Assembly: GCA_043812455.1 (NCBI GenBank)
Contig: JBDRMB010000015.1
Span: 1-56,162 of the forward strand
DNA length: 56,162 bases
Direction of reading: 5' to 3'
From: an archaeon
Lineage (GTDB): Archaea > Nanobdellota > Nanobdellia > Woesearchaeales > GW2011-AR9
Shown here in pieces: positions 1,797-37,982 of this stretch (the stretch's first letter is position 1; each line of letters starts with the position of its first letter). A program made the position numbers and the translations under genes. The notes under the pieces are model-generated. The model was not told where the DNA came from. It did not search any database and was given only the letters and a program-made list of their open reading frames with translations.

Positions 1797-4700
1797 ATGT
1801 TAAAAAAAGGTGTGGTGTTATTAGTAACGTTTATTCTTTTAGTAAGCACAGTCTCTGCAGTTGACCTTGACCAAGTTTCTGATTATGCTGAACAGTATGA
1901 AGATGGTACTTTAAGTTATTTGAAATTTAAGACTTATATGTATTCTATCGAAAAACAATTCTATGATGAACTGGATGATAGCAGACAAGAATTTTATCTA
2001 GAAGATGATAAGGTCAATGAAAAAGATTCTCGTTTAAATGATGAGATTAGAGAGTTAGGCAAAGATGCTGAACAAGCCTTCATGGAAGGCGACATGGAAG
2101 AATTACAATCCATTATTGAGCAGCTTATTGAAAAATTTGAAGAACAAGGTGATGATAAAGCAGTAGAACTCTTAAAAGAACTTAGTGAAGCTGCCGCGAA
2201 TGAAGATTATGATAAAATTGAAGATTTAGCTCAAAAGTTGCCTAAAGATAAGTTTGGTGGTGATGATAAAGATGGTTATCGCATGGATGGTTGGGACATT
2301 GAAGTTGTAGAAGAAATTTTTGGTGAACCTACTTGGTACGAATACCGTGTTTGGGTAGAGAATGAAAATCAAGACATTTTCCTTGACGAACCAGTTCCAA
2401 GGTTTGAAAAAAGATTGTTTGATGGTGAAGAAATTAAAATTACATTAAATGCCTGGCCGAACATGATCAAAGATGGTGAGGATTACATTTTATTTTACCA
2501 TATCGGTTTGGAAACTAGGATCAAACAAGGAGAAGAATTAGATGTCCAAGCAATAATAAGTTATATGGAAGAAAAAACTGAGGCATACCAGTCAGGAGAT
2601 TTATCATTACAAGAATTTGCTCAAGAAGCTGCTTTACAAGAACGAGCATTTCATCAATACTTATGGGATAATAAGGAAGATTGTGAAGATTTATTTTCTG
2701 GAGTTTTAGATGAAGAAGAAAATTCTGACGTTGTTATAATTGAAGGATTGTTAGCAGAAAATAAAAATTTCTTTGCCAGAATTAACCTTCAACACGAAAT
2801 TAATTCAGAATGGGACAATTTTAATTTCTGGGTGCATATTGAAAGCCGAGAACGTAACGATGATTGGGATTCTCCGGAAGATGATTATAATTCTGAAGAT
2901 ATGTTCGGCAAATCTGCAGATGATATTTGGGAAGAATTTTCTGAAGACTTTGTTGAAATGATGGAAGATGTTGTAGGTGCTGATTCTGCAAGTGAAGCTA
3001 ACAAAGCGTTCTTTTCTCAGGAACGTCGACTTAACCATCTTTTGGGAGAACTTAACTGGAGAGCAAACGAAGAGAAAGGTATTACTGTTGATGAACTGGA
3101 AGACGATTTGTACGATTTGATTAAAGAAGTTGCTACTGATGTTAATAAGGAACGAATGGAAAAAACTCGGTACAGAACTTATCTTATCAAAGAAACTGTC
3201 CAGCAAACTAATACTTGGTGTCGAAGTGAAGACAAGGAATGTGATTCTGATGAATATTGTAAAGATGCTGAATGTGTTTCTGCCAAAGGTGGTAATGAAG
3301 TTTGTGAGAATGGTAAAGATGATGACAATGATGGTTATTGGGATTGTGAAGATCCTGACTGTAATTGTAAAGGAGATGATGGCAGGAAAGGTTGGTTTGA
3401 TGATAATGATGATAATGATGATTGGGACCATGATAACGATGATGGCTCTTATGAAGAAAGTGAATGTAAAGATGGTTGTGAAGATGAATGTCCTGGAGCG
3501 GACGGGACTGATTGTATAAACGACCAATGTAAATGTTATTATGAAAATCATTCAGATGATGACGATGATGATTGGGATGATGATTCTGGTAGTGATGATA
3601 ATTCTGGTGATGATAGTTCCGGCGAAGATGATCAAAGTGATGATAGTGGCAGTGGAGAAGCTGATGATTCTGGACAAGATGATGACAGTTCAGGAGAAGA
3701 TTCTGGCAGTGACGATTCTGGTGGTGACGATAGTTCTGATAATAGTGGTGATGATGGAGGAAGTGATAACTCTGGTGGTGATAGCGGTTCAGATGATGGT
3801 GGTTCTTCAGATTCAATTAGCGGTTCTGCAGTTGACGTGTTCTCTGAACAGGATAAAAAAGGAATTAACATGTTCAAACTTTGGTGGAACGTAGCTAAGA
3901 TTTCTACTTATTCAATTACAGGTTCTGCTGTAAACGTTTTTGATGATGTTGGTGCATCAGAAGATGGAGAAGAAAGTAATGATGAACCTGCAGAAGAACC
4001 AGTAGAGGAACCTCAAGAAGATAATTCTAATGAAGAAGAAACAGTGGAAGAGCCTGTAGAAGAAACTCCTGAAGATAATCAAAAAGAAAGTGAAGGAACT
4101 GATGATTCAGAGCAAGAAGACGGTTCTGATAATGAAGAAAGTGATGACGAAGAAGTAAATGAAGATTGGGATGAAGACAAAGATAATAATGATAAAGATA
4201 ATGATTATAATTGGTTTGATGATGTAGATGATTGGAGCAATCCTTGTGAAGACCAATGTCAAGAATGTTGGAAATGTGATTGGGAAACTGAAGGTGATCA
4301 ATGTAATGAATATTGTATCCCATGTAATTTATGTCAGTATGAAGAAGGCGATTATGAATGTCATGATAACCAACAATTTAACGAAGAATTTGCGTATTGT
4401 GAATGTGATGAAGGTTATAGTGACTGTGACGGAGATTGGGAAAACGGTTGTGAATTAGAAGGATGGTGTGAAAGCTGTCAAGAAGATAGTGACTGTGCAC
4501 CAGCCAGGTGTGGAGAAGATCCAAGAAGAATAATTACTTTCACTTGTGAACAAGGCGAAGGCTGGGAAGAAGATAAAGAAGTTTTAGAATTGGGTGCAGA
4601 ATGTAACGTTTTAAGTGACGGAACTAAAGAAGCTGGTTTTTGGATTGGTGGCTGGGGCGAAGAATTACAAGATTTTGAAAAGTATAAACAAGAAGAACAT

Positions 4701-5618
4701 CAAAAGGGCGAGGAAGATTGGTGTAAAAAGGAACTGGAATGGTTAACTGAAGAGCGATTAATGATTCAGGAATCTTTTAATGATGAATTTATTGCCTGGT
4801 TCTTTAACGAGTTTGTTGATGATAATCCTACCGAGTTTGAAGATCATATGCGAATGGTACACAGTTTACACAGAATATTAATGGAAAATACTGACCGTAC
4901 CGCTTGGTCATTAGAATGTTTAGGAGAATCAGAATTTCCAGAAGAGTACCAACCAATCCAAGTAAGTTATGAAAGTGTTTATGGTGAAATTGAAATCTGG
5001 GAAGAGTTTAAAGTAACTGACCATTTTAGTGAAACTGAAATTAATGTTCTCAATCCGTACATGAAAATTTGGATTTTTCCACCAAAAGAATTTATTGTTG
5101 AAAAAATGAAAGAAGAGTTTGGCGGTCCGAAAGGTCCACCACCGCACGAGATTGCAGAAATCAAAGAGAACAAAGTTATCATGAAGAAAATTAACAAAAT
5201 CAGTAAACGCTTTGATGATGGTGCAGAAATTAAACTCCAAGTAGTTGACAATGGCGAAGTTCTGTTCCAGAATTTAATGAAGATTAATCCTGATATAATC
5301 CTGCGAATGCAAAGTATTGATGAAAGTTATTCAGGGTCGATTGATGCTACTGTAAGTGTAGAGATGGATTTCTTATACGAGATGATGAGTACTATTGCTA
5401 AAGAGGTTGAAGGTGGACATGTGGAGGGTCCATGGTGGGAAGAGCGCAGTGATTATGAACGTGGTGGTGTTGAAGAAGCATGGATTGCGATAAAAGTTTT
5501 AGGTAACATTATTGTAGCTGTAACCAATGGTGAGATTGATGTTGAGCCAGACAGTAGAACTGACGATATTGTATTCTCTTTGAAAGAAATAGTTACTATG
5601 ATGTCAATGGGTGGTTAG
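1797..5618 (+). CDS. Large secreted, highly acidic, Cys-rich surface protein
   Basis: Signal peptide MLKKGVVLLVTFILLVSTVSA; D/S/G and E/P low-complexity linkers; Ca-binding-like Cys motifs EVCENGKDDDNDGYWDCEDPDC and GYSDCDGDWENGCE. Confidence 0.8.
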   Translation: MLKKGVVLLVTFILLVSTVSAVDLDQVSDYAEQYEDGTLSYLKFKTYMYSIEKQFYDELDDSRQEFYLEDDKVNEKDSRLNDEIRELGKDAEQAFMEGDMEELQSIIEQLIEKFEEQGDDKAVELLKELSEAAANEDYDKIEDLAQKLPKDKFGGDDKDGYRMDGWDIEVVEEIFGEPTWYEYRVWVENENQDIFLDEPVPRFEKRLFDGEEIKITLNAWPNMIKDGEDYILFYHIGLETRIKQGEELDVQAIISYMEEKTEAYQSGDLSLQEFAQEAALQERAFHQYLWDNKEDCEDLFSGVLDEEENSDVVIIEGLLAENKNFFARINLQHEINSEWDNFNFWVHIESRERNDDWDSPEDDYNSEDMFGKSADDIWEEFSEDFVEMMEDVVGADSASEANKAFFSQERRLNHLLGELNWRANEEKGITVDELEDDLYDLIKEVATDVNKERMEKTRYRTYLIKETVQQTNTWCRSEDKECDSDEYCKDAECVSAKGGNEVCENGKDDDNDGYWDCEDPDCNCKGDDGRKGWFDDNDDNDDWDHDNDDGSYEESECKDGCEDECPGADGTDCINDQCKCYYENHSDDDDDDWDDDSGSDDNSGDDSSGEDDQSDDSGSGEADDSGQDDDSSGEDSGSDDSGGDDSSDNSGDDGGSDNSGGDSGSDDGGSSDSISGSAVDVFSEQDKKGINMFKLWWNVAKISTYSITGSAVNVFDDVGASEDGEESNDEPAEEPVEEPQEDNSNEEETVEEPVEETPEDNQKESEGTDDSEQEDGSDNEESDDEEVNEDWDEDKDNNDKDNDYNWFDDVDDWSNPCEDQCQECWKCDWETEGDQCNEYCIPCNLCQYEEGDYECHDNQQFNEEFAYCECDEGYSDCDGDWENGCELEGWCESCQEDSDCAPARCGEDPRRIITFTCEQGEGWEEDKEVLELGAECNVLSDGTKEAGFWIGGWGEELQDFEKYKQEEHQKGEEDWCKKELEWLTEERLMIQESFNDEFIAWFFNEFVDDNPTEFEDHMRMVHSLHRILMENTDRTAWSLECLGESEFPEEYQPIQVSYESVYGEIEIWEEFKVTDHFSETEINVLNPYMKIWIFPPKEFIVEKMKEEFGGPKGPPPHEIAEIKENKVIMKKINKISKRFDDGAEIKLQVVDNGEVLFQNLMKINPDIILRMQSIDESYSGSIDATVSVEMDFLYEMMSTIAKEVEGGHVEGPWWEERSDYERGGVEEAWIAIKVLGNIIVAVTNGEIDVEPDSRTDDIVFSLKEIVTMMSMGG

Positions 5619-5675
5619 GTTTACAGATAATTGTTTGACAAAAGTATTTTAAACATAAAAATAATTCTTAATTCT

Positions 5676-6833
5676 GTGAAAAAAGAGAAAAATGTTTTAT
5701 TGTTAGGTCTAGTAAGTTTCATCAATGACACTTCCAGTAAAATAATTGAACCGTTATTACCATTATTTATTGCTTCTCTTGGTGGTGGCGGGATTGCAAT
5801 TGGTTTGATTTCTGGTCTGAGTGAATCAGTTGCTGCTATTTTCAAGATGCTTTCTGGGTATTGGGGTGATAAATTACAGAAACGGAAAGGGTTTGTCTTT
5901 GGCGGTTACCTTACTTCAGCATTAGCCAAATTTGGGTTAGCATTTTCTACAGTTTGGGGTTTGGTCTTAGCTTTAAAATCTGTAGAACGGTTAGGTAAGG
6001 GATTACGTTCAGCTCCTCGAGATGCTATCTTGGCAAGTTCTGTGGATAAAGAAAAAAGAGGTAAATATTTTGGCATCCATCGCGCGTTTGATAGTGGTGG
6101 TTCAGTACTTGGTTCATTATTGGCTTTGTTATTATTTTGGTATTTAGGGATGAGTTTCAAGATGCTGTTCATCATTGCTGGGATTTTGGGAATATTTTCT
6201 GTCCTGCCAGTGTTGTTTGTTAAGGAGAAAAAAGTTGTGCCTGAGCAGAAATTCAGTTTCAAAGTCGGCTGGAAAGAGATGAACAAAGAGTTGAAATGGT
6301 TCTTTATCATTTCAGCTATGTTTGCGTTAGCAAATTTCAGTTACATGTTTTTTGTTTTGAGAGTGCAAGATTTTTTTACTGGTAGCTTATTAGTTGGTGG
6401 ACCATTATTGTTTTACATCATTTATCAAGTATCTTATACTGTGATGGCGGTGCCTGCTGGATTTTTAAGTGACAGAATTGGTCGCCGTAAAGTTTTGATG
6501 CTGGGATATGGCTCTTTTATCTTAGTATGTTTAGGGTTTATCTTTTTTGATAAGTTCTGGCATTTTATTATCATGTTTTTGTTGTACGGGTTAATGTACG
6601 CATTAGTTAATTCTACGGAACGTGCCTATGTTTCAGATCTGGCACCACGAAACATCCGCGGGACTGCGTTAGGAACATATTACTTGTTCACTTCATTAGC
6701 TGTACTGCCAGGCGGGTTGATTGCAGGATTGCTTTGGGACTTGAGCAAGATTTATACGTTCAGTTATGGTATTGCGCTAGGTGTAATTGTGCTGTTCTTG
6801 TTTTGGGTTGCTGTCAGAGAGAATGAACATTAG
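5676..6833 (+). CDS. MFS transporter
   Basis: About 12 TM helices; SGYWGDKLQKRK and AGFLSDRIGRRK loop motifs; GKGLRSAPRDA. GTG at 5676 chosen as start because it lies downstream of a TATA-like TTTTAAA. Confidence 0.9.
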   Translation: MKKEKNVLLLGLVSFINDTSSKIIEPLLPLFIASLGGGGIAIGLISGLSESVAAIFKMLSGYWGDKLQKRKGFVFGGYLTSALAKFGLAFSTVWGLVLALKSVERLGKGLRSAPRDAILASSVDKEKRGKYFGIHRAFDSGGSVLGSLLALLLFWYLGMSFKMLFIIAGILGIFSVLPVLFVKEKKVVPEQKFSFKVGWKEMNKELKWFFIISAMFALANFSYMFFVLRVQDFFTGSLLVGGPLLFYIIYQVSYTVMAVPAGFLSDRIGRRKVLMLGYGSFILVCLGFIFFDKFWHFIIMFLLYGLMYALVNSTERAYVSDLAPRNIRGTALGTYYLFTSLAVLPGGLIAGLLWDLSKIYTFSYGIALGVIVLFLFWVAVRENEH

Positions 6834-16749: not shown

Positions 16750-17349
16750 TTATCTTAATTCAACAATAGGAATGTTTCCAAATCCATGTTCTCCTAATAT
16801 CTGTCTTGCTCTTTCAAGATAAGGTCCATTAACTGCAACTTGCTGTAAGTATTCTAAACTAACTTCTTTCGGGACTTCTATTGTATTAAAAGAATCTATA
16901 CTAACCTGAACACTTGGCCTTATGATACTTTTAGGAATATTAACTTCTAATAAAGCACCAATTCTCCCTTCCTCACTAGTACCCACATAAGCAGCTGCAG
17001 TGGAACGCTCACATGCAAGATATATAAACAAGATTCTATTTAATTCTCTATAATCAGATCTTTCTTCGATACTAATTGAATGCATTCCATATAATTGGAC
17101 AATGTCAGCTAGGGCTTCATCGTTTGCTAATACTTCATCAAGTTGAATACCGATGTCTCCCCTTAGAGTTCCATGTTCATGACTGACTCTTGCAGCTTTA
17201 GCAAATTTTTCTGTAAGAGAATCATACCTTTTCTTTTCCATAAACCAAATTTTGTCATTACCTCTATTATAATAAGCAACTATAGCTCCTTGTCTAGCTA
17301 TTCCTTCTAGATTCCTTGTTCCATGATATGCTTTGATTAGTTCTGTCAT
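16750..17349 (-). CDS. Hypothetical protein, possible ADP-ribosyltransferase-like fold
   Basis: AYHGT ... IYLA.ERSTAAAY ... LLEVNIP pattern. Confidence 0.5.
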   Translation of the reverse strand: MTELIKAYHGTRNLEGIARQGAIVAYYNRGNDKIWFMEKKRYDSLTEKFAKAARVSHEHGTLRGDIGIQLDEVLANDEALADIVQLYGMHSISIEERSDYRELNRILFIYLACERSTAAAYVGTSEEGRIGALLEVNIPKSIIRPSVQVSIDSFNTIEVPKEVSLEYLQQVAVNGPYLERARQILGEHGFGNIPIVELR

Positions 17350-18323
17350 TTTCTACTTCTTCCCCTCACCAAATCAGCTTCCAAATAACAACCATTTCTT
17401 TCAGCAATCCCAGCTTTCAAAATAACTGGCTCATAATTACCTAAAAAACCCTTATGACCTTCAATATTCATCCCATGTTCACTAGGGTGTATAACTCTAA
17501 TCCTCCTATAATCATGTTCCCTACCCCATTGCATAACTTTATTCAATACAAATCTCCTTGGACTCATTCCTAATTCATTTCCTAAACGAGAGTACTTTCT
17601 TTCATTTTCTAATTTCATTTGTTTTCCCTGTTCAGAATTTGCTCTTATTGGATCATGATAACCAAATCTCTTTCCTTGGATTGTCATAACATAAATATCT
17701 TTTTTAGCCCCATCAAGAAAAAAACTTACTTTTGCAATATATCCATTAGCACTGCTTACATGTCTTTCATCTCTTTTTGCTAATAAACACGCAATACCAA
17801 AATAATCATCAGTAACACCCATTACCAGTTCTAATTTTGTATTTCCTTCAGTATCAACAGAGCCAAATTCTTTGATAATATTCCTCCATGAATCATTAGT
17901 CTCATGAATAATTCGGCTATTTGTGTCGAACCTTTGAACAACATCCTCTAATGAAGGTTGAATTAATCCATGAAGTAAAAAATGTGGGTAACATAATTCA
18001 TTTGCATCTTCAGGAAATGGTTCAGCAAACCTTTCCATAGCCTGAGCTGTTGCGTTTGCATATTCTTTTGGAGAAACAGATTCTTCTAAATGTTCATATG
18101 CTCTTCTGAATAATTGCATTACCAATAGGGTATTATAACCAAAACGGATACCTATTGACTCCCTATTTAAAATTCCAGTTCCTGATTTTAAACACAAAGT
18201 TCCACTAACTGAAGAATCGTTGGCTGTCCACTCATTTAGTTTAAACCATTCCTCTGGTTTATTTGAATCTATTAAATATTCTTCAACTTTATCTGCAAAT
18301 CTTTGAGTATTTATTTTTACCAT
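17346..18323 (-). CDS. VirK/YbjX (DUF535)-like protein
   Basis: IYVMTIQG and LGMSPRRFVL resemble the family's I..LQG and G.RP..LL motifs; ATGA overlap with the next ORF. Confidence 0.55.
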   Translation of the reverse strand: MVKINTQRFADKVEEYLIDSNKPEEWFKLNEWTANDSSVSGTLCLKSGTGILNRESIGIRFGYNTLLVMQLFRRAYEHLEESVSPKEYANATAQAMERFAEPFPEDANELCYPHFLLHGLIQPSLEDVVQRFDTNSRIIHETNDSWRNIIKEFGSVDTEGNTKLELVMGVTDDYFGIACLLAKRDERHVSSANGYIAKVSFFLDGAKKDIYVMTIQGKRFGYHDPIRANSEQGKQMKLENERKYSRLGNELGMSPRRFVLNKVMQWGREHDYRRIRVIHPSEHGMNIEGHKGFLGNYEPVILKAGIAERNGCYLEADLVRGRSRK

Positions 18324-18677: not shown

Positions 18678-19400
18678 ATGGGGACAAAGAGTAGTATTAT
18701 GGGGAAAAGGGTGTTAAGTTCTAGTTCTTGGGCAACTGTTGATAAATTTGATTCTCAAACTGAAGAACAAATCAAGAAAGAACTGATTCTAGGCTTTACT
18801 GAAGAGGGTGATTTAGTCTTTGACCCCTTTTTGGGTAACGGAGAAACTTTGTATGCTTGTCATAACCTTAACAGAAATGGGATCTCTTTAACTGACAATA
18901 ATGAAAAGTTTCACAGTATTAGTGAAGAAATCAAACGTTTAGAAAGTCAGTTACAATTAGGAGAATTTGGTGCCAAACTGAAAAGTAAACAATTGTTGCT
19001 GAAGAGTAAGTTAAAAGATTTTGATTATCTCTGGCAACAGTATAAGTTGCCTGAATTAAGTGTGGTTGTTTCATTTTTGCCTAACTGGAAAGTTTTGACC
19101 AATTTATCTGAGCAGGTTTATCCAGGACAAGGTTTTACAGTAATGCAATTTCTGGAAAAAGTTTTTACTGGAGTTAAGGAAAAGTTACGCTCTGGTACTT
19201 ATCTTTTGATTTTGCTGGAAAACGAATATCAAGATGGTAAATATCTAAATTATTCTAGCGAATTTATTGCTATGATGCAACAGCATTACCAATTGAAGGG
19301 TGAAAAGGTTATTGGTGTAACTTCGAAAGCTAGTAATGTCTTGAAGAATATGTTAGTTACTCACAAGAATTTGTTGGTGTTTAGGAAGATTGAGATTTAA
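18678..19400 (+). CDS. Degenerate N4/N6 DNA methyltransferase-like protein
   Basis: FTEEGDLVFDPFLGNGETLYAC (motif I) present; where (D/N/S)PPY is expected the sequence is VVVSFLPNW. Confidence 0.7.
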   Translation: MGTKSSIMGKRVLSSSSWATVDKFDSQTEEQIKKELILGFTEEGDLVFDPFLGNGETLYACHNLNRNGISLTDNNEKFHSISEEIKRLESQLQLGEFGAKLKSKQLLLKSKLKDFDYLWQQYKLPELSVVVSFLPNWKVLTNLSEQVYPGQGFTVMQFLEKVFTGVKEKLRSGTYLLILLENEYQDGKYLNYSSEFIAMMQQHYQLKGEKVIGVTSKASNVLKNMLVTHKNLLVFRKIEI

Positions 19401-19408
19401 GTAATAGT

Positions 19409-20044
19409 TTAATACTCAATCCCTCGCCTAGCCATCACTCCTTTGTCGAAATAATGTTTCTCTGCTTTCATCTCTGTAACTAAGTCAGCATTCTCTAGAA
19501 CTTCTATTGGTGCACCTCGACCGGTAAGGATCAGTTCAACGTCATCGGGTTTGTTGGCCATAAGGTTCAACACAAGTTCTACATTCAGAAATCCTAAACT
19601 AACTGCAGTATTGATCTCGTCCAGTACCACAACTTGATAATTTCCAGACATAACTACCTCTAAAGTTTTCTTGAACGCTTCTTCAACATAATCTCTTTGA
19701 ATAGCGTCATTTAAGAAACAGTACCGGCAAGTGCCACATTCGATATCTTCCCGAATATAATCAAAAAGTTTTTTGTTTTTATCTTCTTCACTTAAACTAA
19801 AAAAACCTTGAATCTTGAGTTGTTTCTGCTGCTTGATGCATGGTCTGCCAAATTGCATGATCTCAAAGTTTGGTAAGAAGTTTTTGGAAGCTACATATTC
19901 ACCTGTGTAAGCGCCACCTTTCATGTATTGGATCATGAAAACATTAAATCCTTGGCCAACGGCACGTAAAGATAATCCTAGAGAAGCAGTAGTTTTACCT
20001 TTTCCATCTCCAGTGTATACATGCACTAGCCCCTTCTTTTTCAT
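19409..20044 (-). CDS. cobO: Cob(I)yrinic acid a,c-diamide adenosyltransferase (CobA/CobO/BtuR) with Cys-rich insertion
   Basis: VYTGDGKGKTTASLG, IQYMKG, VVLDEI, ELILTGRGAP, ADLVTEM...KHYFDKGVMARRGIEY. Confidence 0.95.
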   Translation of the reverse strand: MKKKGLVHVYTGDGKGKTTASLGLSLRAVGQGFNVFMIQYMKGGAYTGEYVASKNFLPNFEIMQFGRPCIKQQKQLKIQGFFSLSEEDKNKKLFDYIREDIECGTCRYCFLNDAIQRDYVEEAFKKTLEVVMSGNYQVVVLDEINTAVSLGFLNVELVLNLMANKPDDVELILTGRGAPIEVLENADLVTEMKAEKHYFDKGVMARRGIEY

Positions 20045-20053
20045 ACCTAAACC

Positions 20054-22087
20054 TCATAAATTTTTACTCAATACCTGCCCGTCTTTACTTCCGTCCCGAT
20101 ATATTGTAATCCCTTTACATCCTAACTGATAAGCTAACAAGAAAACTTCTCGGACATCTTCAACAGTAGCATAGTACGGAAAATTAACAGTCTTAGAAAC
20201 AGCATTGTCTACATGTTTCTGGAACGTAGCTTGCATCTTGACATGATCTTCAGGAGTTAAGTCCATTGCTGTTAAAAATATTTTTTTAACATGATCTGGA
20301 ACTTCGTCAATATTCTGTACTGAACCTTGCTGAGCAATTTTTCTCATCAGATCTTCATTGTAAAATCCTTCTTCTTTGGCAATCTGTTCGAATAACGGAT
20401 TGATCTCTAACATTTCAAATTGTGAAGTTTTACGTAAGAATGATAATGCAAACAAAGGTTCAATGCTAGGTGAGCAAGAAGCAATTATTGATACTGTTCC
20501 GGTTGGCGAAATTGTTGTTCGGCAAGCGTTACGCAATCTATAAACCTCTTGATTGTTATCATAAACTGAACCTTGGTAATTTGGAAATAATCCTCTGGTT
20601 TTTGCTAAATTACATGAAGCAGCCCGCGCTTCATCGTTAATCAAACGCATTACTTTGTCAGCAGTTTCAATTGCTTCTTCAGAATTGTATGGTACTTTCA
20701 TTTTAATTAACAGATCTGCCCAGCCCATCACTCCTAAACCCACTTTTCTGTTACCGTTAATTATCCTAGCGGTTTCAGCTAAAGGTACAACATTAAATTC
20801 AGTAGCATTATCTAAGAAATGAATTGCATTGTGGACAGTACGTTTAAGTTTGTGCCAATCAATCACCATAGCATTTTTTTCTAAATCTTTAATAACGTGG
20901 TTGGATAAATTAATTGAACCTAAAATTACTGATTCATAAGGCAACAGTGGTTGTTCTCCGCAAGGACTTGTAGTTTCAATTTCACCTAATTTAGGTGTGG
21001 GATTACTTCGAGGACTGTTAATTCTGTTTAAGAACACTATTCCCGGGTCACCATTTTTCCAGGCCATAGTTGCAATCAGGTCTAAAGTTCGTTTGGCGTT
21101 AAGTTTTCCTACTACTTGGCCATTACGTGGATTGATTAGTTCATAATTTTCTTCTTTCTCAAGAGCGTCCATGAACTGTTCAGTAATTCCCACTGAAAGA
21201 TTATAATTAGTAATGATGTCTTGGCTTTCTTTACAGGTTATAAAATCTAAAATGTCAGGATGGTCAACACACAAAATTGCCATGTTGGCTCCACTTCTTC
21301 TTCCACCTTGTTTAATCTCTCCTATAGCTTTGTCAAATATTTTTAAGAAAGCTAACGGTCCAGAAGCCACACCATGCATTTTGTTAACTACATCACCCCT
21401 AGGTCTGATTCTAGAGAATGAAAAGCCAGTACCGCCGCCACGGCGATGGATTATTGCAGCATGTTTTAGCGAAGTGAAAATTCCTTCAGTAGTATCATCT
21501 AATGGCAAAGAAAATACTGAAGATAATTGACCATTTTCTGTACCTGCATTCATTAACAAAGGTGAATTTGGTATAAATTCAAGAGAAGTCATCATCCTGA
21601 AGAATTTCTCTTTCGCATCTTCAACGTTGCCCCCAAAATGGATTTCAGCAGAAGCTATATGATTAGCTACCCGTTCAAACATTTCTTTTGGTGTTTCTAC
21701 AGTCCGGCCATTTTCGTCTTTCAATAAATATCTAGCTTCAATTACTTTGAAGGCGTTCAGTCCTAACTTACAATCGTCAATGATACCTGCTCGAGATTTA
21801 GCTTCTCGGACTTCTTTTCGTTTCTGTCGGTAAAGAATAAAACTTTTAGCAGTACTTGTTTGACCTTCTTCAATTAAAACTTTTTCAATGGTATCTTGAA
21901 CAGTTTCCATGTCAATGATTTCTTGATCAGCAATGTAAAGATAATCTTGTACTAAGCCAGAAAGGTCTTTAGCAAGCTCGTAATCATTACCACCCACTGA
22001 TTGAATAGCCTTAAAAATAGCAGAAGTAATCTTTTCTGGATCGAAATCTACCAATTCTCCGTTTCTAGTTCTTACTTTTGGTGGCAT
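20054..22087 (-). CDS. nrdJ: Class II (adenosylcobalamin) ribonucleotide reductase homolog with ATP cone and atypical active site
   Basis: ATP cone, RYLLKD, PNSPLLMNAG, GGGTG, KQGGRRSGANM, PCGEQPL, RKVGLGVMG, PTGT, KGITIYRDGS. Redox Cys positions are Val191 and Val387. Confidence 0.9.
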   Translation of the reverse strand: MPPKVRTRNGELVDFDPEKITSAIFKAIQSVGGNDYELAKDLSGLVQDYLYIADQEIIDMETVQDTIEKVLIEEGQTSTAKSFILYRQKRKEVREAKSRAGIIDDCKLGLNAFKVIEARYLLKDENGRTVETPKEMFERVANHIASAEIHFGGNVEDAKEKFFRMMTSLEFIPNSPLLMNAGTENGQLSSVFSLPLDDTTEGIFTSLKHAAIIHRRGGGTGFSFSRIRPRGDVVNKMHGVASGPLAFLKIFDKAIGEIKQGGRRSGANMAILCVDHPDILDFITCKESQDIITNYNLSVGITEQFMDALEKEENYELINPRNGQVVGKLNAKRTLDLIATMAWKNGDPGIVFLNRINSPRSNPTPKLGEIETTSPCGEQPLLPYESVILGSINLSNHVIKDLEKNAMVIDWHKLKRTVHNAIHFLDNATEFNVVPLAETARIINGNRKVGLGVMGWADLLIKMKVPYNSEEAIETADKVMRLINDEARAASCNLAKTRGLFPNYQGSVYDNNQEVYRLRNACRTTISPTGTVSIIASCSPSIEPLFALSFLRKTSQFEMLEINPLFEQIAKEEGFYNEDLMRKIAQQGSVQNIDEVPDHVKKIFLTAMDLTPEDHVKMQATFQKHVDNAVSKTVNFPYYATVEDVREVFLLAYQLGCKGITIYRDGSKDGQVLSKNL

Positions 22088-34304: not shown

Positions 34305-37300
34305 ATGATTAAAGGTCAAGTGGTTTCTGGAGATTTCGGTAAGATTGCTATGCGTGTCAAGCAAGACCAAAATGTTGAATTGGGAGAATTGTTAGTTATT
34401 CAAAACAATCAAAGTGGACCGAATGAACTTTTTATTCTGCAAGTTTATGATCTTGTCTACGCTTCTCAAATTAGTCAGCAGAACCTTGAACTAGTCTCTG
34501 GGATGAACTTGGAAGAAGATTCTAATTTTCAGTTGATGGACAGAAATCTAAGAAACTATCAAATAGCATTACTCAAACCAGTACTTAACGTAACGCAGAA
34601 AGAAGGTCAGAACCAAACAAAACAAGTGAGTAACACTTGTAAAAAATTGCCTAATTTCTTTTCAACCGTTCGGGCTGTACACAAAGAAGATTTACAGTTT
34701 ATCACCAGACCAAAAAATCCTTTTTATCTCGGAAAATTGAGGAGTGGCAGCCAGGAACTTGACTTAGAGATCTTTTTGTCAGGCAAAGAAGTATTCTCAC
34801 ATCATGTTTTAATCCCAGCATCTACAGGAAAAGGTAAGAGTTTGGATGAAAATGAAGAAGTGCTGATTAAACAAAATGATAATTTTTCAATTAAAACCAT
34901 TGGGGAAATTGTTAATAACCATAATTTTTCGGATCCAGAAATGTGGGCCATGAGTATGAATCCAAAAAATTATTCCATTTGTTTTAAAAAAGTAACTAAT
35001 TTTGTTAAACATAAAGCCCCCTCTTTCATGTACTTAGTGACTACTGAAAGTGGTCGTGAGATTATGGTAACTAAAGATCATAATTTATACGTTTTAAGAA
35101 ATGGCCATCTAATGCTTTTGAAGACTCAAGATCTCTCAAATAATGACCATTTACCTTTACCTTTAAAGATTGATACAAATGGAGATTTAAAAGAATTAAA
35201 TTTATTTGAACTGTTAGAAAGACAGAAAAAAATTTATGTATTATATGATAAAAAAATTGTAAAGAAGCTTAAGTCTAAAAAGGAATGCATAAAGATTTTG
35301 TCAAAATATTTTAATCAACCATTACAAAAATACAATGATTTTGTAACCAAAAAAAATAAAATTAAAATTACTCTTATCAGAGAATTATTAGATAATGAAT
35401 TATCTTATGAAGAATTAAGAACTATTAAATTAACAGATCAACATTTTAGTTTTAAATTAAATGCGATTTTGCCATTAACAAAAGAATTTTTGCAATTAAT
35501 AGGATATTATATTGCAGAAGGTTACTGTTCAGATGAGAATAGCTTCAAAATAAGCTGTTCGGAAAAACCTGGACAAGAATTGTTAAATAACATATTTAAA
35601 AAACTTGGCTTAAAATATTTCTGGATTAAGAAAAAAGAGAAAAATATGGATGTTGGTGTTTCTTCTTCCATATTCACAAAGATATTAAAAGAGATCGGAG
35701 TCGGAAGGGTGTCTGGAGATAAAAGATTACCATTTTTTTTCATGAATCTGTCAAATGAAAATTTAGGAATTCTTCTTAAAACTTACTTTGAAGGAGATGG
35801 TGGAGTCAATAAGGAAATAATTATGAAAAAAAGAAATTTTAATATTTCAACAACCACAAAATCAAAGAAACTTGCAAGCGATATATGTTTTGCTTTATAC
35901 AGATATGGGATCTTCAGTAGATGTAAAAAACTTTGGAAAAGAGCCACTAATACAAATCACAAAGGCAATTGGTACTATTGTATTAAAATCTCTGGGAAAT
36001 CAGATATAGTAACATTTTTGTCTGAAATCGGCTTTCAATTTTCAAGGAAAAATGATGTTTTGAAAGATAAGTTAGATTATAAAGAAAATACGAATGTAGA
36101 TTTAATTCCGTGTGGTTCCGAAATTGTGAAAAAAATTAGATTATCTCTAAGATTAAGTCAAGGAGATTTAGCTAAATTGTCTAATTGTTCAAAAAGTATT
36201 ATTTCTTTAATAGAATTAGGAAAAAGAAAACCTAGTAGATATATGACTGCGATATTGGTTAAGGTATTTAGAAAGCAATTATTAAAATTAGATCAATCTT
36301 TGTTTGATAAATTAATTGTTTTTTCATATTCTCCAAGTTCCGAAAAGATAGTTGAGTTAATTAATAAAGCAAGAAAAAAACAAAAATTAACACTTTTTGA
36401 ACTTGGAAAAAAATCTGGTCTTTATAAAAACGCCTCAAAACATTACATTGAAAATGATCTAAGTAGAATCTTAGAAACAAAAAAAGTAAAAAACTCTCCA
36501 AAAATTTATGCCTTGGGACAATTTCTATCAATCAATTCAAAAGGAAAGAATTTGTCTAAATTTGTATCTCTTTTTGAGTTTAATTTTAATGGTTGGAGTG
36601 AAGTTGTTAGAAGTGCTCTTTTTATGTTAAATTTTCCTAATCAAGCTATGCAAAAGGAGAAACAAAATTTGGGTTATTATGCTAGAGAATTAAAGAAAGG
36701 TAAACAGATCCAACTTAAAAGCCTTAGAAAACTTGCAAAATTGTCATCAGAATATTATTTAAAAATAATAGAGGTTGAACTCCTAGTTTCTATTTTAGAA
36801 AATCAACTAAATTTTAGATGGGATAAAATAAAAGAAGTGAAGAAAATAAAGTATGATAAAAAATATGTTTATGATCTAACTATAAAAGATAATAAAACAT
36901 TTCTTGCCGGTCATGGAGGATTATTTGTCCATAATAGCAATTTAATGAGCACTATTCTGTGGGATTGTCATCCGCAAGATTTTGTAGGAATGCTTGTCCT
37001 CGATCCGCACGATGAATATTATGGTAGGGTTGGTCTAGGATTAAAAGATCATCCCTGTAAAGAAGATTTAGTGTATTACACACCAAGTACTCCACCGCCA
37101 GGTACAAAGACGTTAAAAATTAATCTTAGATCTCTGAAGCCTGAACATTTTCAAGGTGCAATTGCATTAACTGATCCTCAGCAGCAATGCTTGCATGCTT
37201 ATCATCGAATGTTTCAGCAACATTGGATAAAGGCAATCTTAGAAGAACGGAAGATTGAAGGAGTAAGTTTCCATCCAGATACTGTTGCTGTTGTGAAACG

Positions 37301-37982
37301 GAAATTAATTTCTTTATTACAGATAGAGTTAAGTAACGGACAGATGATCTGTCAGGGTATCTTTGATGAAGTTGCTGGAGAAAATACTGTCAGAGAAATC
37401 TGTAAAGAGCTTGAGCAAAGCAAAACAGTAATCATTGACACCAGTTACTTTTCTGGAGCGTTAGAGATTATGATTGGCAGCATTATCGCTAGTGAAGCTT
37501 TGAAATTGTACAAATACTATAAGCGACAAGGTCTTTTAGAACAGAAGCCAGTAATTAGCATTGTTTTAGAAGAAGCTCCTCGTGTGTTAGGCAAAAAAGT
37601 TTTGGAGCAAGGTACTAACATTTTCGATACTATTGCTCGTGAAGGCCGAAAATTTAAAGTTGGTTTAGTGGCAATTACACAATTGCCGAGCGAAATTCCT
37701 AAAAATATTTTAGCTAACATGAATACTAAAATTATTCTGGGGATAGAGATGGGTTCTGAACGGCAGGCAGTGATAGAATCTTCTGCTCAGGATTTAAGTC
37801 AAGATTCACGTAACATTGCTAGTTTGGACAAAGGTGAAGCTTTGATAACAAGTACATTTACTAGATTTGCAGTACCAATCAAGATCCCTTACTTTCCAGA
37901 GTTTGTTAAAGGTCAGAATGCAAAAAGAATTGCAGAAACAAATTCAGGAGTAGAAAACAGTTTTCCGGGTGTTGGAATATAG
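34305..37982 (+). CDS. herA: HerA-like ATPase (HAS barrel + FtsK/HerA ATPase) containing an intein
   Basis: [13 protein letters not shown]|[30 protein letters not shown]; spliced product about 526 aa. Confidence 0.88.
34839..36935 (+). mobile_element. Intein (699 aa) with LAGLIDADG homing endonuclease and inserted HTH-XRE segments
   Basis: Starts SLDENEEV; block B TKDH; LIGYYIAEG and [10 protein letters not shown]; block F VYDLTI; ends VHN followed by Ser. Confidence 0.93.

What the first reader, a model, noticed from the sequence alone, without database searches (positions are those of the whole stretch)
20054..22087. Class II RNR homolog with both redox cysteines replaced by Val but the radical Cys retained: candidate new B12 radical enzyme
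Seen: the motifs normally read QLSSC, TNPCGEQ and ESCNLGS; here they read GQLSSV(191)F, TTS(374)PC(376)GE(378)Q and YESV(387)ILGS. Both Val codons are GTA (21515-21517 and 20927-20929), which is not a single-base error from TGY. The protein ends QVLSKNL with no C-terminal Cys shuttle. The ORF, ATP cone and other core motifs are intact. Established: in class I/II RNRs the thiyl-radical Cys and Glu (E. coli C439/E441) start catalysis, while the C225/C462 pair supplies the reducing equivalents. Inference: this protein cannot perform canonical disulfide-coupled reduction. It may be a redox-neutral radical dehydratase (e.g. making 3'-keto-2'-deoxynucleotides or releasing bases), may use a different reductant, or may be a regulatory pseudo-enzyme subunit. 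Its position directly upstream of cobO suggests it still uses AdoCbl.
Basis: partly seen in the sequence, partly recalled or inferred. Interest (0 to 1): 0.88.

Follow-up and report, generated by a model that had tools for sequence, protein, structure and literature searches.

The report
B12 ribonucleotide reductase paralog without redox cysteines
A small groundwater archaeon carries, beside a normal B12-dependent ribonucleotide reductase, a well-conserved second copy that keeps the radical-starting cysteine but has lost every residue that normally delivers electrons, so it probably does something other than ordinary DNA-precursor synthesis.

Summary
ORF 20054-22087 (-) encodes a 677-aa class II RNR (NrdJ) homologue. 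Aligned to T. maritima NrdJ, C134->V191, N320->S374, C333->V387, with C322=C376 and E324=E378 kept. It has no C-terminal Cys tail.

It is not a private mutation. 19 of 121 closest protein clusters and 7 of 80 species-genome loci share the pattern (Asn->Ser, betaF Cys->V/A/I, no Cys tail). They form one clade (SH-aLRT 100) inside canonical archaeal NrdJ. NG86 dN/dS is 0.07-0.13.

All 9 variant genomes checked also hold a canonical NrdJ with a P-A-G-R loop (8 of the 9 inspected), the motif of triphosphate reducers. Sister genomes with a canonical copy have only that RNR in 6 of 7 cases.

cobO follows the variant in 8 of 8 loci, but also follows canonical relatives, so this synteny is inherited.

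Best reading (0.4): an AdoCbl thiyl-radical enzyme acting on NDPs without disulfide cycling, most simply a redox-neutral 2'-elimination. Rivals are a non-catalytic partner of the canonical NrdJ (0.3) and a reductase using another reductant (0.15). I found no report of it in six searches of the held library. Function is unproven.

The parts
20054..22087 (-). NrdJ-like paralog, 677 aa (ATP cone + all-alpha + 10-stranded barrel), lacking the redox Cys pair, the finger-loop Asn and the C-terminal Cys tail
21812..22078 (-). ATP-cone domain (residues 4-92)
   Evidence: Pfam PF03477, E 1e-17, profile 2-88 of 88
21560..21571 (-). Apical phosphate loop P-N-S-P (residues 173-176), the motif of diphosphate-reducing NrdJ
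   Evidence: motif meaning taken from PMC8365446 Results
21515..21517 (-). GTA codon of V191, at the betaA redox Cys position (Tm C134; E. coli C225 by recall)
20954..20968 (-). Finger-loop S374-P-C376-G-E378: Asn replaced by Ser, thiyl Cys and Glu kept
20927..20929 (-). GTA codon of V387, at the betaF redox Cys position (Tm C333; E. coli C462 by recall); the next residue is I388 in place of Asn
19409..20044 (-). cobO/cobA-type ATP:corrinoid adenosyltransferase, 211 aa, 9 nt downstream on the same strand; the only copy found in the genome; carries a conserved 4-Cys insertion

Best explanation
Shown: this is a conserved, selectively maintained paralog of dimeric, diphosphate-type class II RNR. 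It has lost every residue of the electron-delivery path (betaA Cys, betaF Cys, finger-loop Asn, C-terminal Cys pair). It keeps the radical-initiating half (finger-loop Cys376 and Glu378), the NDP phosphate loop, the ATP cone and the fold. It always sits beside a canonical, predicted NTP-reducing NrdJ elsewhere in the genome. Inferred: it still binds AdoCbl (made by the adjacent CobO) and a nucleoside diphosphate. AdoCbl homolysis makes the Cys376 thiyl radical, which abstracts H3'. Glu378 takes the 3'-OH proton and the 2' substituent leaves. No hydrogen donor remains on the lower face (V191, V387, I388), so the only donor for the 2' radical is Cys376-SH itself. The net reaction would be a redox-neutral, diol-dehydratase-like 2'-elimination giving a 3'-keto-2'-deoxynucleotide (or its breakdown products), with the thiyl radical and AdoCbl regenerated. 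The exact substrate and the fate of the product are unknown.
For: 1) Clade: 19 of 121 closest 90%-identity clusters (query included) have Asn->Ser and betaF Cys->V/A/I, and none has a C-terminal Cys pair. C376 and E378 are kept in 19 of 19. A profile search finds the same 18 other clusters at 1181-1299 bits, then a gap to canonical hits at 1121 bits or less. 2) The clade is monophyletic (SH-aLRT 100, stem 0.22) and nested in canonical NrdJ, with internal branch lengths like its canonical sister. 3) Purifying selection: NG86 dN/dS is 0.07-0.13 (dS 1.5-1.9) for four pairs. Over 28 genome pairs the variant is 61.2% identical on average, against 66.1% for the canonical NrdJ of the same genomes. 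4) The new residues are fixed, not drifting: S374 19/19, V/A/I387 19/19, I/V388 19/19, L248 19/19, S527 19/19, S541 18/19, A428 18/19. The finger loop, GGGTGFSFS, the phosphate loop and the betaJ motif stay well above the background conservation of the clade (0.88-0.95 against 0.74). 5) The apical P-N-S-P loop that binds the beta-phosphate in NDP reducers is kept in 17 of 19 (PMC8365446 Results). 6) Not needed as RNR: 9 of 9 variant genomes have a second RNR gene; the 8 inspected are canonical, with the redox residues, a Cys tail and a P-A-G-R loop (G207's was only counted). Genomes with the canonical sister gene have that gene as their only RNR barrel hit in 6 of 7. 7) The betaA Cys survives in only one subclade (6 of 19), so it became dispensable after the betaF Cys and Asn were lost. 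8) Chemistry: perturbing RNR by active-site mutations or substrate analogues commonly ends in base loss, and 2'-chloro substrates give the 3'-keto-2'-deoxynucleotide (passages of PMC9026282 and PMC7321198). 9) AF2 model pLDDT 88.8; best PDB match Tm NrdJ, TM 0.76/0.82.
Against: No activity data exist. The general acid that normally protonates the leaving 2'-OH (the betaA Cys, by recall) is gone, so water loss may be slow. The expected product is unstable and yields an alkylating furanone, and no conserved neighbour gene that could process it was found: apart from cobO the flanks are housekeeping genes. Loop 2 and the betaA motif are relaxed in the clade; the third loop-2 Arg, 102/102 in canonical, is A/S/P/H here. 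75 of 223 columns that are >=95% conserved in canonical sequences vary in the clade. Some other variant lineages have lost the Glu or the thiyl Cys as well (L112, P0178, P0198), which hints at non-catalytic roles for such paralogs. In this genome the canonical NrdJ has no ATP cone and the variant does, which fits a regulatory-partner role. cobO synteny is inherited. I had no model coordinates, so no distances were measured.
Confidence: 0.4

Rival explanations
1. Non-catalytic paralog (pseudo-subunit). It binds nucleotides through its ATP cone and specificity site, and perhaps AdoCbl. It would act as an allosteric or cofactor-handling partner of the canonical, ATP-cone-less NrdJ, in the way inactive paralogs serve other RNRs.
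For: Three catalytic residues plus the tail are lost. By recall of the mutagenesis literature, each loss alone abolishes reduction in studied RNRs. The genome's canonical NrdJ lacks an ATP cone while the variant keeps one. The variant never occurs without the canonical gene (9 of 9), whereas type-2-like genes were the only hit in 4 family genomes with the P0001 query (G171, G180, G181, G201). Other Cys-deficient or tail-less NrdJ paralogs in the same order lie directly beside a second RNR gene: G109, G137, G147 and G101, G161, G174, G199, G210. Some of these have lost Glu or the thiyl Cys. Loop 2 and the betaA motif are relaxed. Precedents recalled, not checked here: yeast Rnr4 and beta-herpesvirus R1 homologues.
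Against: C376 and E378 are invariant in 19 of 19. The finger loop, phosphate loops and P-N-S-P loop stay as conserved as in active enzymes, and the replaced active-site positions are fixed to new residues rather than drifting. Across the variant lineages seen, lower-face residues are lost repeatedly while the thiyl Cys is lost in 1 of 12 rows. In this clade the variant and the canonical gene are never adjacent (0 of 8). The two proteins are only about 36% identical over the part that aligns.
Confidence: 0.3
2. Still a ribonucleotide reductase, but one that takes its reducing equivalents from something other than an internal Cys pair: a small molecule such as formate (as in class III), a free thiol, or a partner protein reaching into the site.
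For: Class III RNRs work with only the betaA Cys plus formate (Burnim preprint passages; abstract of PMC5704485). The subclade that keeps the betaA Cys (6 of 19) has that arrangement, and it also carries extra subclade-specific Cys at positions 370 and 628. The ATP cone and most of loop 2 (K259, Q260, R264) are kept, as expected for an enzyme tied to dNTP pools. Tail-less NrdJ paralogs with intact catalytic residues exist in relatives.
Against: In the window's protein and 12 other clade members no Cys, Met or other hydrogen donor replaces the betaA Cys (V/I/T), and no new conserved Cys appears anywhere. The Asn is replaced in 19 of 19. The betaA Cys was lost on at least two branches of the tree, so it is dispensable. 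Every variant genome keeps a canonical NrdJ, while sister genomes with a canonical copy manage with one RNR.
Confidence: 0.15
3. Decaying gene, assembly or sequencing artefact, or chimeric bin.
For: The genome is a 44-contig assembly with 2.43% estimated contamination.
Against: The frame is open. Identical sequence occurs in contigs of other runs. Orthologues occur in 8 further genomes and 18 further protein clusters. dN/dS is about 0.1. Synteny is conserved.
Confidence: 0.02

Closest known systems
Dimeric, diphosphate-type class II RNR (NrdJ), e.g. Thermotoga maritima NrdJ (PDB 1xje, 3o0o)
   Same: Same fold (TM 0.76/0.82). The sequence passes TIGR02504 (646.7 bits against a cut-off of 399.95). 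Finger-loop Cys and Glu, the P-N-S-P apical loop, most of loop 2 and the cobO neighbour seen in archaeal relatives are shared.
   Different: betaA Cys->Val, betaF Cys->Val, finger-loop Asn->Ser, Asn after the betaF Cys->Ile, third loop-2 Arg lost, and no C-terminal Cys pair or zinc-finger domain.
Laboratory mutants of the redox Cys and Asn of E. coli NrdA (C225S, C462S, N437 variants) and L. leichmannii RTPR (C119S, C419S)
   Same: Same set of positions removed while the thiyl Cys is kept. By recall these mutants still start the radical reaction and turn substrate into base plus reactive sugar fragments. PMC9026282 (passage) says that active-site mutations frequently cause base dissociation and cites the C225S study.
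   Different: Those are crippled, self-inactivating laboratory proteins. Here the state is natural, fixed in a clade and under purifying selection, with further co-adapted changes. Details of the mutant phenotypes are recalled, not read here.
Formate-dependent class III RNR (NrdD)
   Same: A natural RNR that works without the betaF Cys and without a C-terminal tail.
   Different: NrdD keeps the betaA Cys, uses a glycyl radical and lacks the Glu. The window's protein has no betaA Cys, keeps the Glu and belongs to the AdoCbl lineage. No NrdD was found in this genome (genome 93.6% complete).
AdoCbl-dependent diol and glycerol dehydratases
   Same: The proposed net chemistry is the same: a radical 1,2-diol is converted to a carbonyl plus water, redox-neutral, with AdoCbl regenerated.
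   Different: There is no homology: only RNR domains are found. In those enzymes the 5'-deoxyadenosyl radical acts directly, not through a protein thiyl radical (recalled).
Inactive RNR paralogs (yeast Rnr4 beta' subunit; beta-herpesvirus R1 homologues)
   Same: RNR-family proteins that lost catalytic residues yet are conserved and act through protein partners (recalled).
   Different: Those have lost the radical-generating or thiyl residues. Here the initiating Cys and Glu are invariant.
NCBIfam NF005401 (PRK06948) 'ribonucleotide reductase-like protein'
   Same: An annotated RNR-like subfamily of unknown role that matches the barrel.
   Different: The score is 250 bits against a cut-off of 906, so the protein is not a member.

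Membership tests
Class II RNR (NrdJ) | Sequence profile above the curated threshold (TIGR02504 NrdJ_Z; Pfam PF02867 + PF00317) | tested here: met
   646.7 bits against a cut-off of 399.95; PF02867 E 2.4e-117
Class II RNR (NrdJ) | Ten-stranded alpha/beta barrel with finger loop, closest to solved NrdJ | tested here: met
   AF2 pLDDT 88.8; best PDB match 1xje, TM 0.76/0.82
Class II RNR (NrdJ) | Finger-loop thiyl Cys and Glu (Tm C322, E324) | tested here: met
   C376 and E378; 19 of 19 in the clade
Class II RNR (NrdJ) | Finger-loop Asn (Tm N320) | tested here: not met
   S374; Ser in 19 of 19 clade members against Asn in 102 of 102 canonical
Class II RNR (NrdJ) | Redox-active Cys pair on betaA and betaF (Tm C134, C333) | tested here: not met
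   V191 and V387. Canonical sequences have Cys at both in 102 of 102. No substitute conserved Cys.
Class II RNR (NrdJ) | C-terminal Cys pair or Cys-rich zinc-finger domain for re-reduction | tested here: not met
   The protein ends ...QVLSKNL. There is no terminal Cys pair in any of the 19 clade tails (the only Cys in the last 50 residues lie in conserved core motifs), whereas the canonical tails printed show a terminal Cys pair.
Class II RNR (NrdJ) | Apical phosphate loop P-N-S-P (NDP) or P-A-G-R (NTP) | tested here: met
   P-N-S-P in this protein and in 17 of 19 clade members; motif meaning from PMC8365446
Class II RNR (NrdJ) | AdoCbl binding and homolysis | not testable with these tools
   Only indirect evidence: cobO adjacent in 8 of 8 loci. 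The AdoCbl-contact residues were not available to me.
Class II RNR (NrdJ) | Reduction of ribonucleotides to deoxyribonucleotides | not testable with these tools
   Needs an enzyme assay. The sequence argues against the disulfide route.
AdoCbl-dependent eliminases (diol dehydratase type) | Homology to the PduCDE/DhaB large subunit | tested here: not met
   Only RNR and ATP-cone domains were found. The resemblance is in proposed chemistry only.
RNR pseudo-subunits | Loss of the radical-initiating residues, and an obligate complex with an active paralog | tested here: inconclusive
   The initiating Cys and Glu are kept. It co-occurs with a canonical NrdJ in 9 of 9 genomes. Binding was not tested.

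The most novel reading that the evidence does not exclude
A natural AdoCbl- and thiyl-radical-dependent ribonucleoside-diphosphate 2'-eliminase ('ribonucleotide diol dehydratase') that evolved from an RNR by deleting the reducing half-reaction. It would make 3'-keto-2'-deoxynucleotides, which lack a 3'-OH. These could serve nucleotide salvage or breakdown in a host-dependent archaeon, or act as chain-terminating antiviral nucleotides in the way viperin products do. It would be a new reaction class for the RNR fold and for B12 enzymes.
Probability: 0.25. Interest if true: 0.92.

Novelty: new variant of a known kind. Interest (0 to 1): 0.72.

Why it matters
In RNR enzymology the radical-initiating half and the reducing half of the active site have so far been separated only by mutagenesis. 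Here nature appears to have done it and kept the result for a long time. If the protein is active, it shows what the RNR scaffold does when reduction is impossible, and it adds a new B12 radical reaction. If it is inactive, it is a new kind of RNR accessory subunit in archaea with very small genomes. Either way, public records name these proteins 'adenosylcobalamin-dependent ribonucleoside-diphosphate reductase' (source names), and they pass the NCBI equivalog model. Automatic annotation and RNR censuses therefore overcount functional reductases in these lineages.

Tried and rejected
Substitute cysteines. I looked for clade-specific conserved Cys. Only C376, C538 and C657 are conserved, and positions 538 and 657 are also Cys in 72 and 102 of 102 canonical proteins. 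Rejected at sequence level. No model coordinates were available in the script box, so no distances were measured.

Private mutation or relaxed selection. Rejected.

Functionally linked neighbours other than cobO. Gene families in 8 loci were clustered and ten were scanned with Pfam. They are RimK-type ATP-grasp, a Zn protease, a Dph2 fragment, S10, EF-1alpha, an AP-endonuclease-2-fold protein and a methyltransferase. All are housekeeping synteny and none is informative. A PNPOx-like gene follows cobO in 2 of 8 loci.

Independent origins of all Cys-deficient NrdJ lineages. The free tree puts them in at least three places. A tree forcing 25 variant rows into one clade is 73.9 log-likelihood units worse, with p-AU 0.10, which is not rejected. 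The group was named after seeing the tree, and P0198, P0220, P0251 and P0231 were left out as long branches. I therefore do not claim convergence.

Representative library search. Many 'odd' patterns among the 150 best hits are artefacts of inteins split at the finger loop. Only rows under about 760 aa were read as real variants.

Expression. One RNA-library run (X7) holds two 151-nt contigs inside the gene and another (X10) holds none. The tool warns that DNA can be present in such libraries, so transcription is not shown.

RNA elements. There are no Rfam families at gathering score and no tRNAs in the window.

Literature. Searches found no description of a Cys-pair-less NrdJ. The passages read from the Burnim et al. 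preprint do not mention one. This covers only the held open-access library. Supplements are closed, and the supplementary alignments and trees of Burnim 2022, Schell 2021 and Loderer 2017 may contain these sequences.

Complex prediction was not used. Two full chains exceed its size limit, and any two NrdJ paralogs would probably dock by likeness to solved RNR dimers, so a pass would not discriminate.

Unpublished genomes. G139 and G119 (loci L117, L127) appear only as 2 of the canonical rows.
Full report
OBSERVATION. The ORF at 20054-22087 on the minus strand is open and encodes 677 aa. Pfam finds an ATP cone, the RNR all-alpha domain and the RNR barrel. NCBIfam's NrdJ equivalog model TIGR02504 is passed, at 646.7 bits against a cut-off of 399.95. 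The closest solved protein is T. maritima NrdJ (E 6.4e-107). In that alignment Tm C134, N320, C322, E324 and C333 face V191, S374, C376, E378 and V387, and the protein stops where the crystallised Tm core stops. Both Val codons are GTA. Contigs of two other groundwater metagenome runs cover both codons without a difference. An AlphaFold model built on a 109-sequence alignment is confident (pLDDT 88.8) and matches Tm NrdJ best (TM 0.76/0.82). The finger-loop Asn and the Asn following the betaF Cys (I388) are replaced as well.

A CONSERVED CLADE. Among the 121 closest 90%-identity clusters (query included), 19 carry non-canonical residues at the five key columns: VSCEV 8, CSCEV 5, ISCEV 3, TSCEA 2 and CSCEI 1. 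The other 102 read CNCEC. All 19 have Ser for Asn and V/A/I for the betaF Cys, and all lack the C-terminal Cys pair. Six keep the betaA Cys. A profile of the 19 recovers the same 18 other clusters at 1181-1299 bits, followed by a gap to canonical proteins at 1121 bits or less. Of the 80 best loci in one-genome-per-species contigs, 7 are of this type, 71 are canonical, 1 is partial and 1 could not be classed. In a quick maximum-likelihood tree of 61 rows the clade is monophyletic (SH-aLRT 100). It is nested inside canonical archaeal NrdJ, next to a canonical group with a GGCxxC tail, and its internal branch lengths resemble those of its neighbours. The betaA-Cys-keeping proteins form one inner subclade. 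The betaF Cys and the Asn therefore went first, and the betaA Cys was lost later on at least two branches.

SELECTION. NG86 dN/dS is 0.07-0.13 for window-L128, window-L129, window-L038 and L005-L016, with dS at 1.5-1.9, near saturation. Across 28 pairs of the same eight genomes the variant averages 61.2% identity, the canonical NrdJ 66.1% and CobO 70.6%. The variant is thus only slightly faster than an essential enzyme. Of 223 columns that are at least 95% conserved in the 102 canonical sequences, 148 are kept in at least 90% of the clade. Twenty columns show clean differences between the groups. They cluster at T177->M/L next to the apical phosphate loop, M248L, the third loop-2 Arg (->A/S/P/H), N374S, C387V, N388I, V428A/I429T/D430E, I439T and A527S/S540P/G541S in the distal phosphate loop. 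Most are fixed to a new residue. The loop-2 Arg and the betaA strand motif look relaxed instead. No new conserved Cys appears.

GENOMIC SETTING. The genome is 1.14 Mb in 44 contigs and 93.6% complete. It has two RNR barrel genes and no NrdD hit. The second gene lies on another contig and encodes 864 aa. It has the full CTNPCGE...VCNL set, a betaA Cys, a C-terminal Cys pair, no ATP cone, and a P-A-G-R apical loop. According to the Results of Schell et al. 2021 (PMC8365446), P-A-G-R marks triphosphate reducers and P-N-S-P marks diphosphate reducers, and genomes with two nrdJ genes usually combine the two types. The variant keeps P-N-S-P (17 of 19). All nine variant-bearing genomes examined (G000-G007 and G207) have a second RNR barrel gene, and the eight inspected (all but G207's) are of this long canonical type. 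It is never adjacent to the variant in the eight loci where I compared positions. In contrast, seven genomes of the same family carry the canonical sister gene, and six of them have it as their only RNR barrel hit; G165, 77% complete, has a further fragment. This complementary pattern is what one expects if the variant cannot supply deoxynucleotides.

cobO lies directly downstream in 8 of 8 variant loci. It also lies downstream of canonical NrdJ in L008, L011, L015 and L017 (a fifth hit, in L062, is ambiguous), and it is the only cobO found in this genome. The linkage is inherited, not a new association. Other neighbours are housekeeping genes. By the names that sources give to relatives, and by neighbours such as CDP-archaeol synthase and Dph2, the organism is a DPANN-type archaeon close to Woesearchaeota. 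Runs holding the sequence are groundwater and biofilm metagenomes. The taxonomic placement is an inference.

MECHANISTIC READING. It is established (recalled, and in part in the passages) that in class I and II RNRs the finger-loop thiyl radical abstracts H3', the Glu deprotonates the 3'-OH, and the betaA/betaF Cys pair protonates the leaving 2'-OH and supplies the two electrons. The pair is then re-reduced by the C-terminal Cys. Here the whole second half is missing and has been replaced by aliphatic side chains, while the first half and the nucleotide-binding loops are conserved. The simplest chemistry left is initiation followed by loss of the 2' substituent, with the hydrogen returned from Cys376 to C2'. 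That is a redox-neutral dehydration to a 3'-keto-2'-deoxynucleotide. It is the path that RNRs take with 2'-chloro substrates and, by recall, with redox-Cys mutants. I give this 0.4 as a class ('radical enzyme without disulfide cycling') and about 0.25 for the specific reaction.

The weak points are as follows. The general acid is missing. The product is reactive. No downstream-processing gene was found. Loop 2 is partly relaxed.

MAIN RIVAL. The protein may be a non-catalytic partner of the canonical NrdJ (0.3). The variant carries the only ATP cone among the two RNR homologues. In the same order many genomes hold two or three NrdJ paralogs. Other Cys-deficient or tail-less paralogs sit directly beside a tail-bearing RNR gene: G109, G137 and G147, and G101, G161, G174, G199 and G210. 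A few of these have also lost the Glu or the thiyl Cys. Against this rival, C376 and E378 are invariant in the clade, the substrate loops remain conserved, and the replaced positions are fixed, not drifting. A reductase using an external reductant (0.15) fits the betaA-Cys-keeping subclade better than it fits the window's protein.

WIDER PICTURE, NOT SETTLED. Among 50%-identity representatives and relatives' genomes there are further tail-less NrdJ-like proteins with patterns such as CSCEC, SSCEA, SSCEG, SDCET, CDCEA, CDCDS, TDCSV, VSCEI and GITEC. The free tree places them in at least three positions, but a single origin is not rejected (p-AU 0.10).

NOVELTY. Six full-text searches and passages of the large RNR phylogeny preprint gave no description of class II RNR homologues lacking the redox Cys pair. 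Public records name them ordinary NrdJ. The library is open-access only and supplements were closed, so this is not proof of absence from print. I rate the finding a new variant of a known kind. It is of high interest to RNR and B12 enzymology, and the function is unproven.

Noticed in passing
Relatives' genomes: L122 (G101), L146 (G161), L154 (G174), G199:C21, G210:C52: A third NrdJ lineage is common in the window's family. It is tail-less, bears an ATP cone, and has finger loop TTNQCGEA and loop 2 ending R-P-G-A. In 5 of 5 genomes checked it sits directly downstream of another RNR gene (zinc-finger-type Cys-rich tails were seen in G101, G161 and G174). Eleven of the 14 seen read CNCEC, 2 read CNCEI and 1 reads SNCEC. 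This suggests two-gene NrdJ systems with relaxed redox Cys in the tail-less member.
   Followed up: partly
L112 (G109), L120 (G137), L121 (G147); proteins P0154, P0169, P0178, P0198, P0206, P0214, P0220, P0239, P0251: Other NrdJ-like proteins without Cys tails and with altered active sites (TDCSV, CDCEA, CSCEC, SDCET, CDCDS, GITEC, SSCEG, SSCEA, VSCEI, CDCEC). L112, L120 and L121 lie next to a long canonical NrdJ gene. A single origin against several origins is not resolved.
   Followed up: partly
Clade members P0025, P0026, P0027, P0030, P0031, P0033 (loci L005, L016): The subclade that keeps the betaA Cys has six subclade-specific Cys columns. These include position 370 on the finger loop and position 628 in the betaJ D-N-A-V-S-K-T motif. 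They could form an alternative redox pair there.
   Followed up: no
P0007, P0010 (L004, L138) and P0008, P0009, P0014 (L003): Some clade members carry a 35-50 residue Cys-free C-terminal extension. It ends in conserved His-rich motifs (..HPH..R..HLY(D) or ..TIHKKLHTF(R/Q)). Its role is unknown.
   Followed up: no
window 19409-20044 (-): CobO has an insertion of about 45 residues with four Cys (C..., then C-x2-C-x2-C). The insertion is conserved in all 8 variant-linked CobOs and in 3 of 4 CobOs next to canonical NrdJ. This may be a metal or Fe-S site for corrinoid reduction. It puts the protein just under the TIGR00708 cut-off (157.8 against 167.75).
   Followed up: partly
L005 8699-9133 (+), L006 8760-9218 (+): A PNPOx-like FMN-binding split-barrel gene follows cobO on the same strand in 2 of 8 variant loci. 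It is a possible corrinoid or flavin reductase.
   Followed up: no
window 1797-5618 (+): A 1273-aa ORF with no Pfam match, in a stretch with unusually strong GC skew (0.37-0.38 at 2001-6000).
   Followed up: no
window 34305-37982 (+): A HerA-type helicase (DUF87) interrupted by an intein with a LAGLIDADG endonuclease and an HTH domain. Many NrdJ relatives also carry inteins, often at the finger loop.
   Followed up: no
window 18678-19400 (+), 17346-18323 (-), 16750-17349 (-): Downstream of cobO, the window has replaced the RimK/Zn-protease genes conserved in 6 other loci. In their place are a 240-aa ORF matching only the C-terminal part of an N6/N4 DNA methylase domain and two overlapping ORFs without Pfam matches, found only here.
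   Followed up: no
window 20718-20868 and 21813-21958: Two 151-nt contigs from a groundwater metatranscriptome library match the gene at 99% or more. This is a weak hint of transcription only, because DNA carry-over is not excluded.
   Followed up: partly
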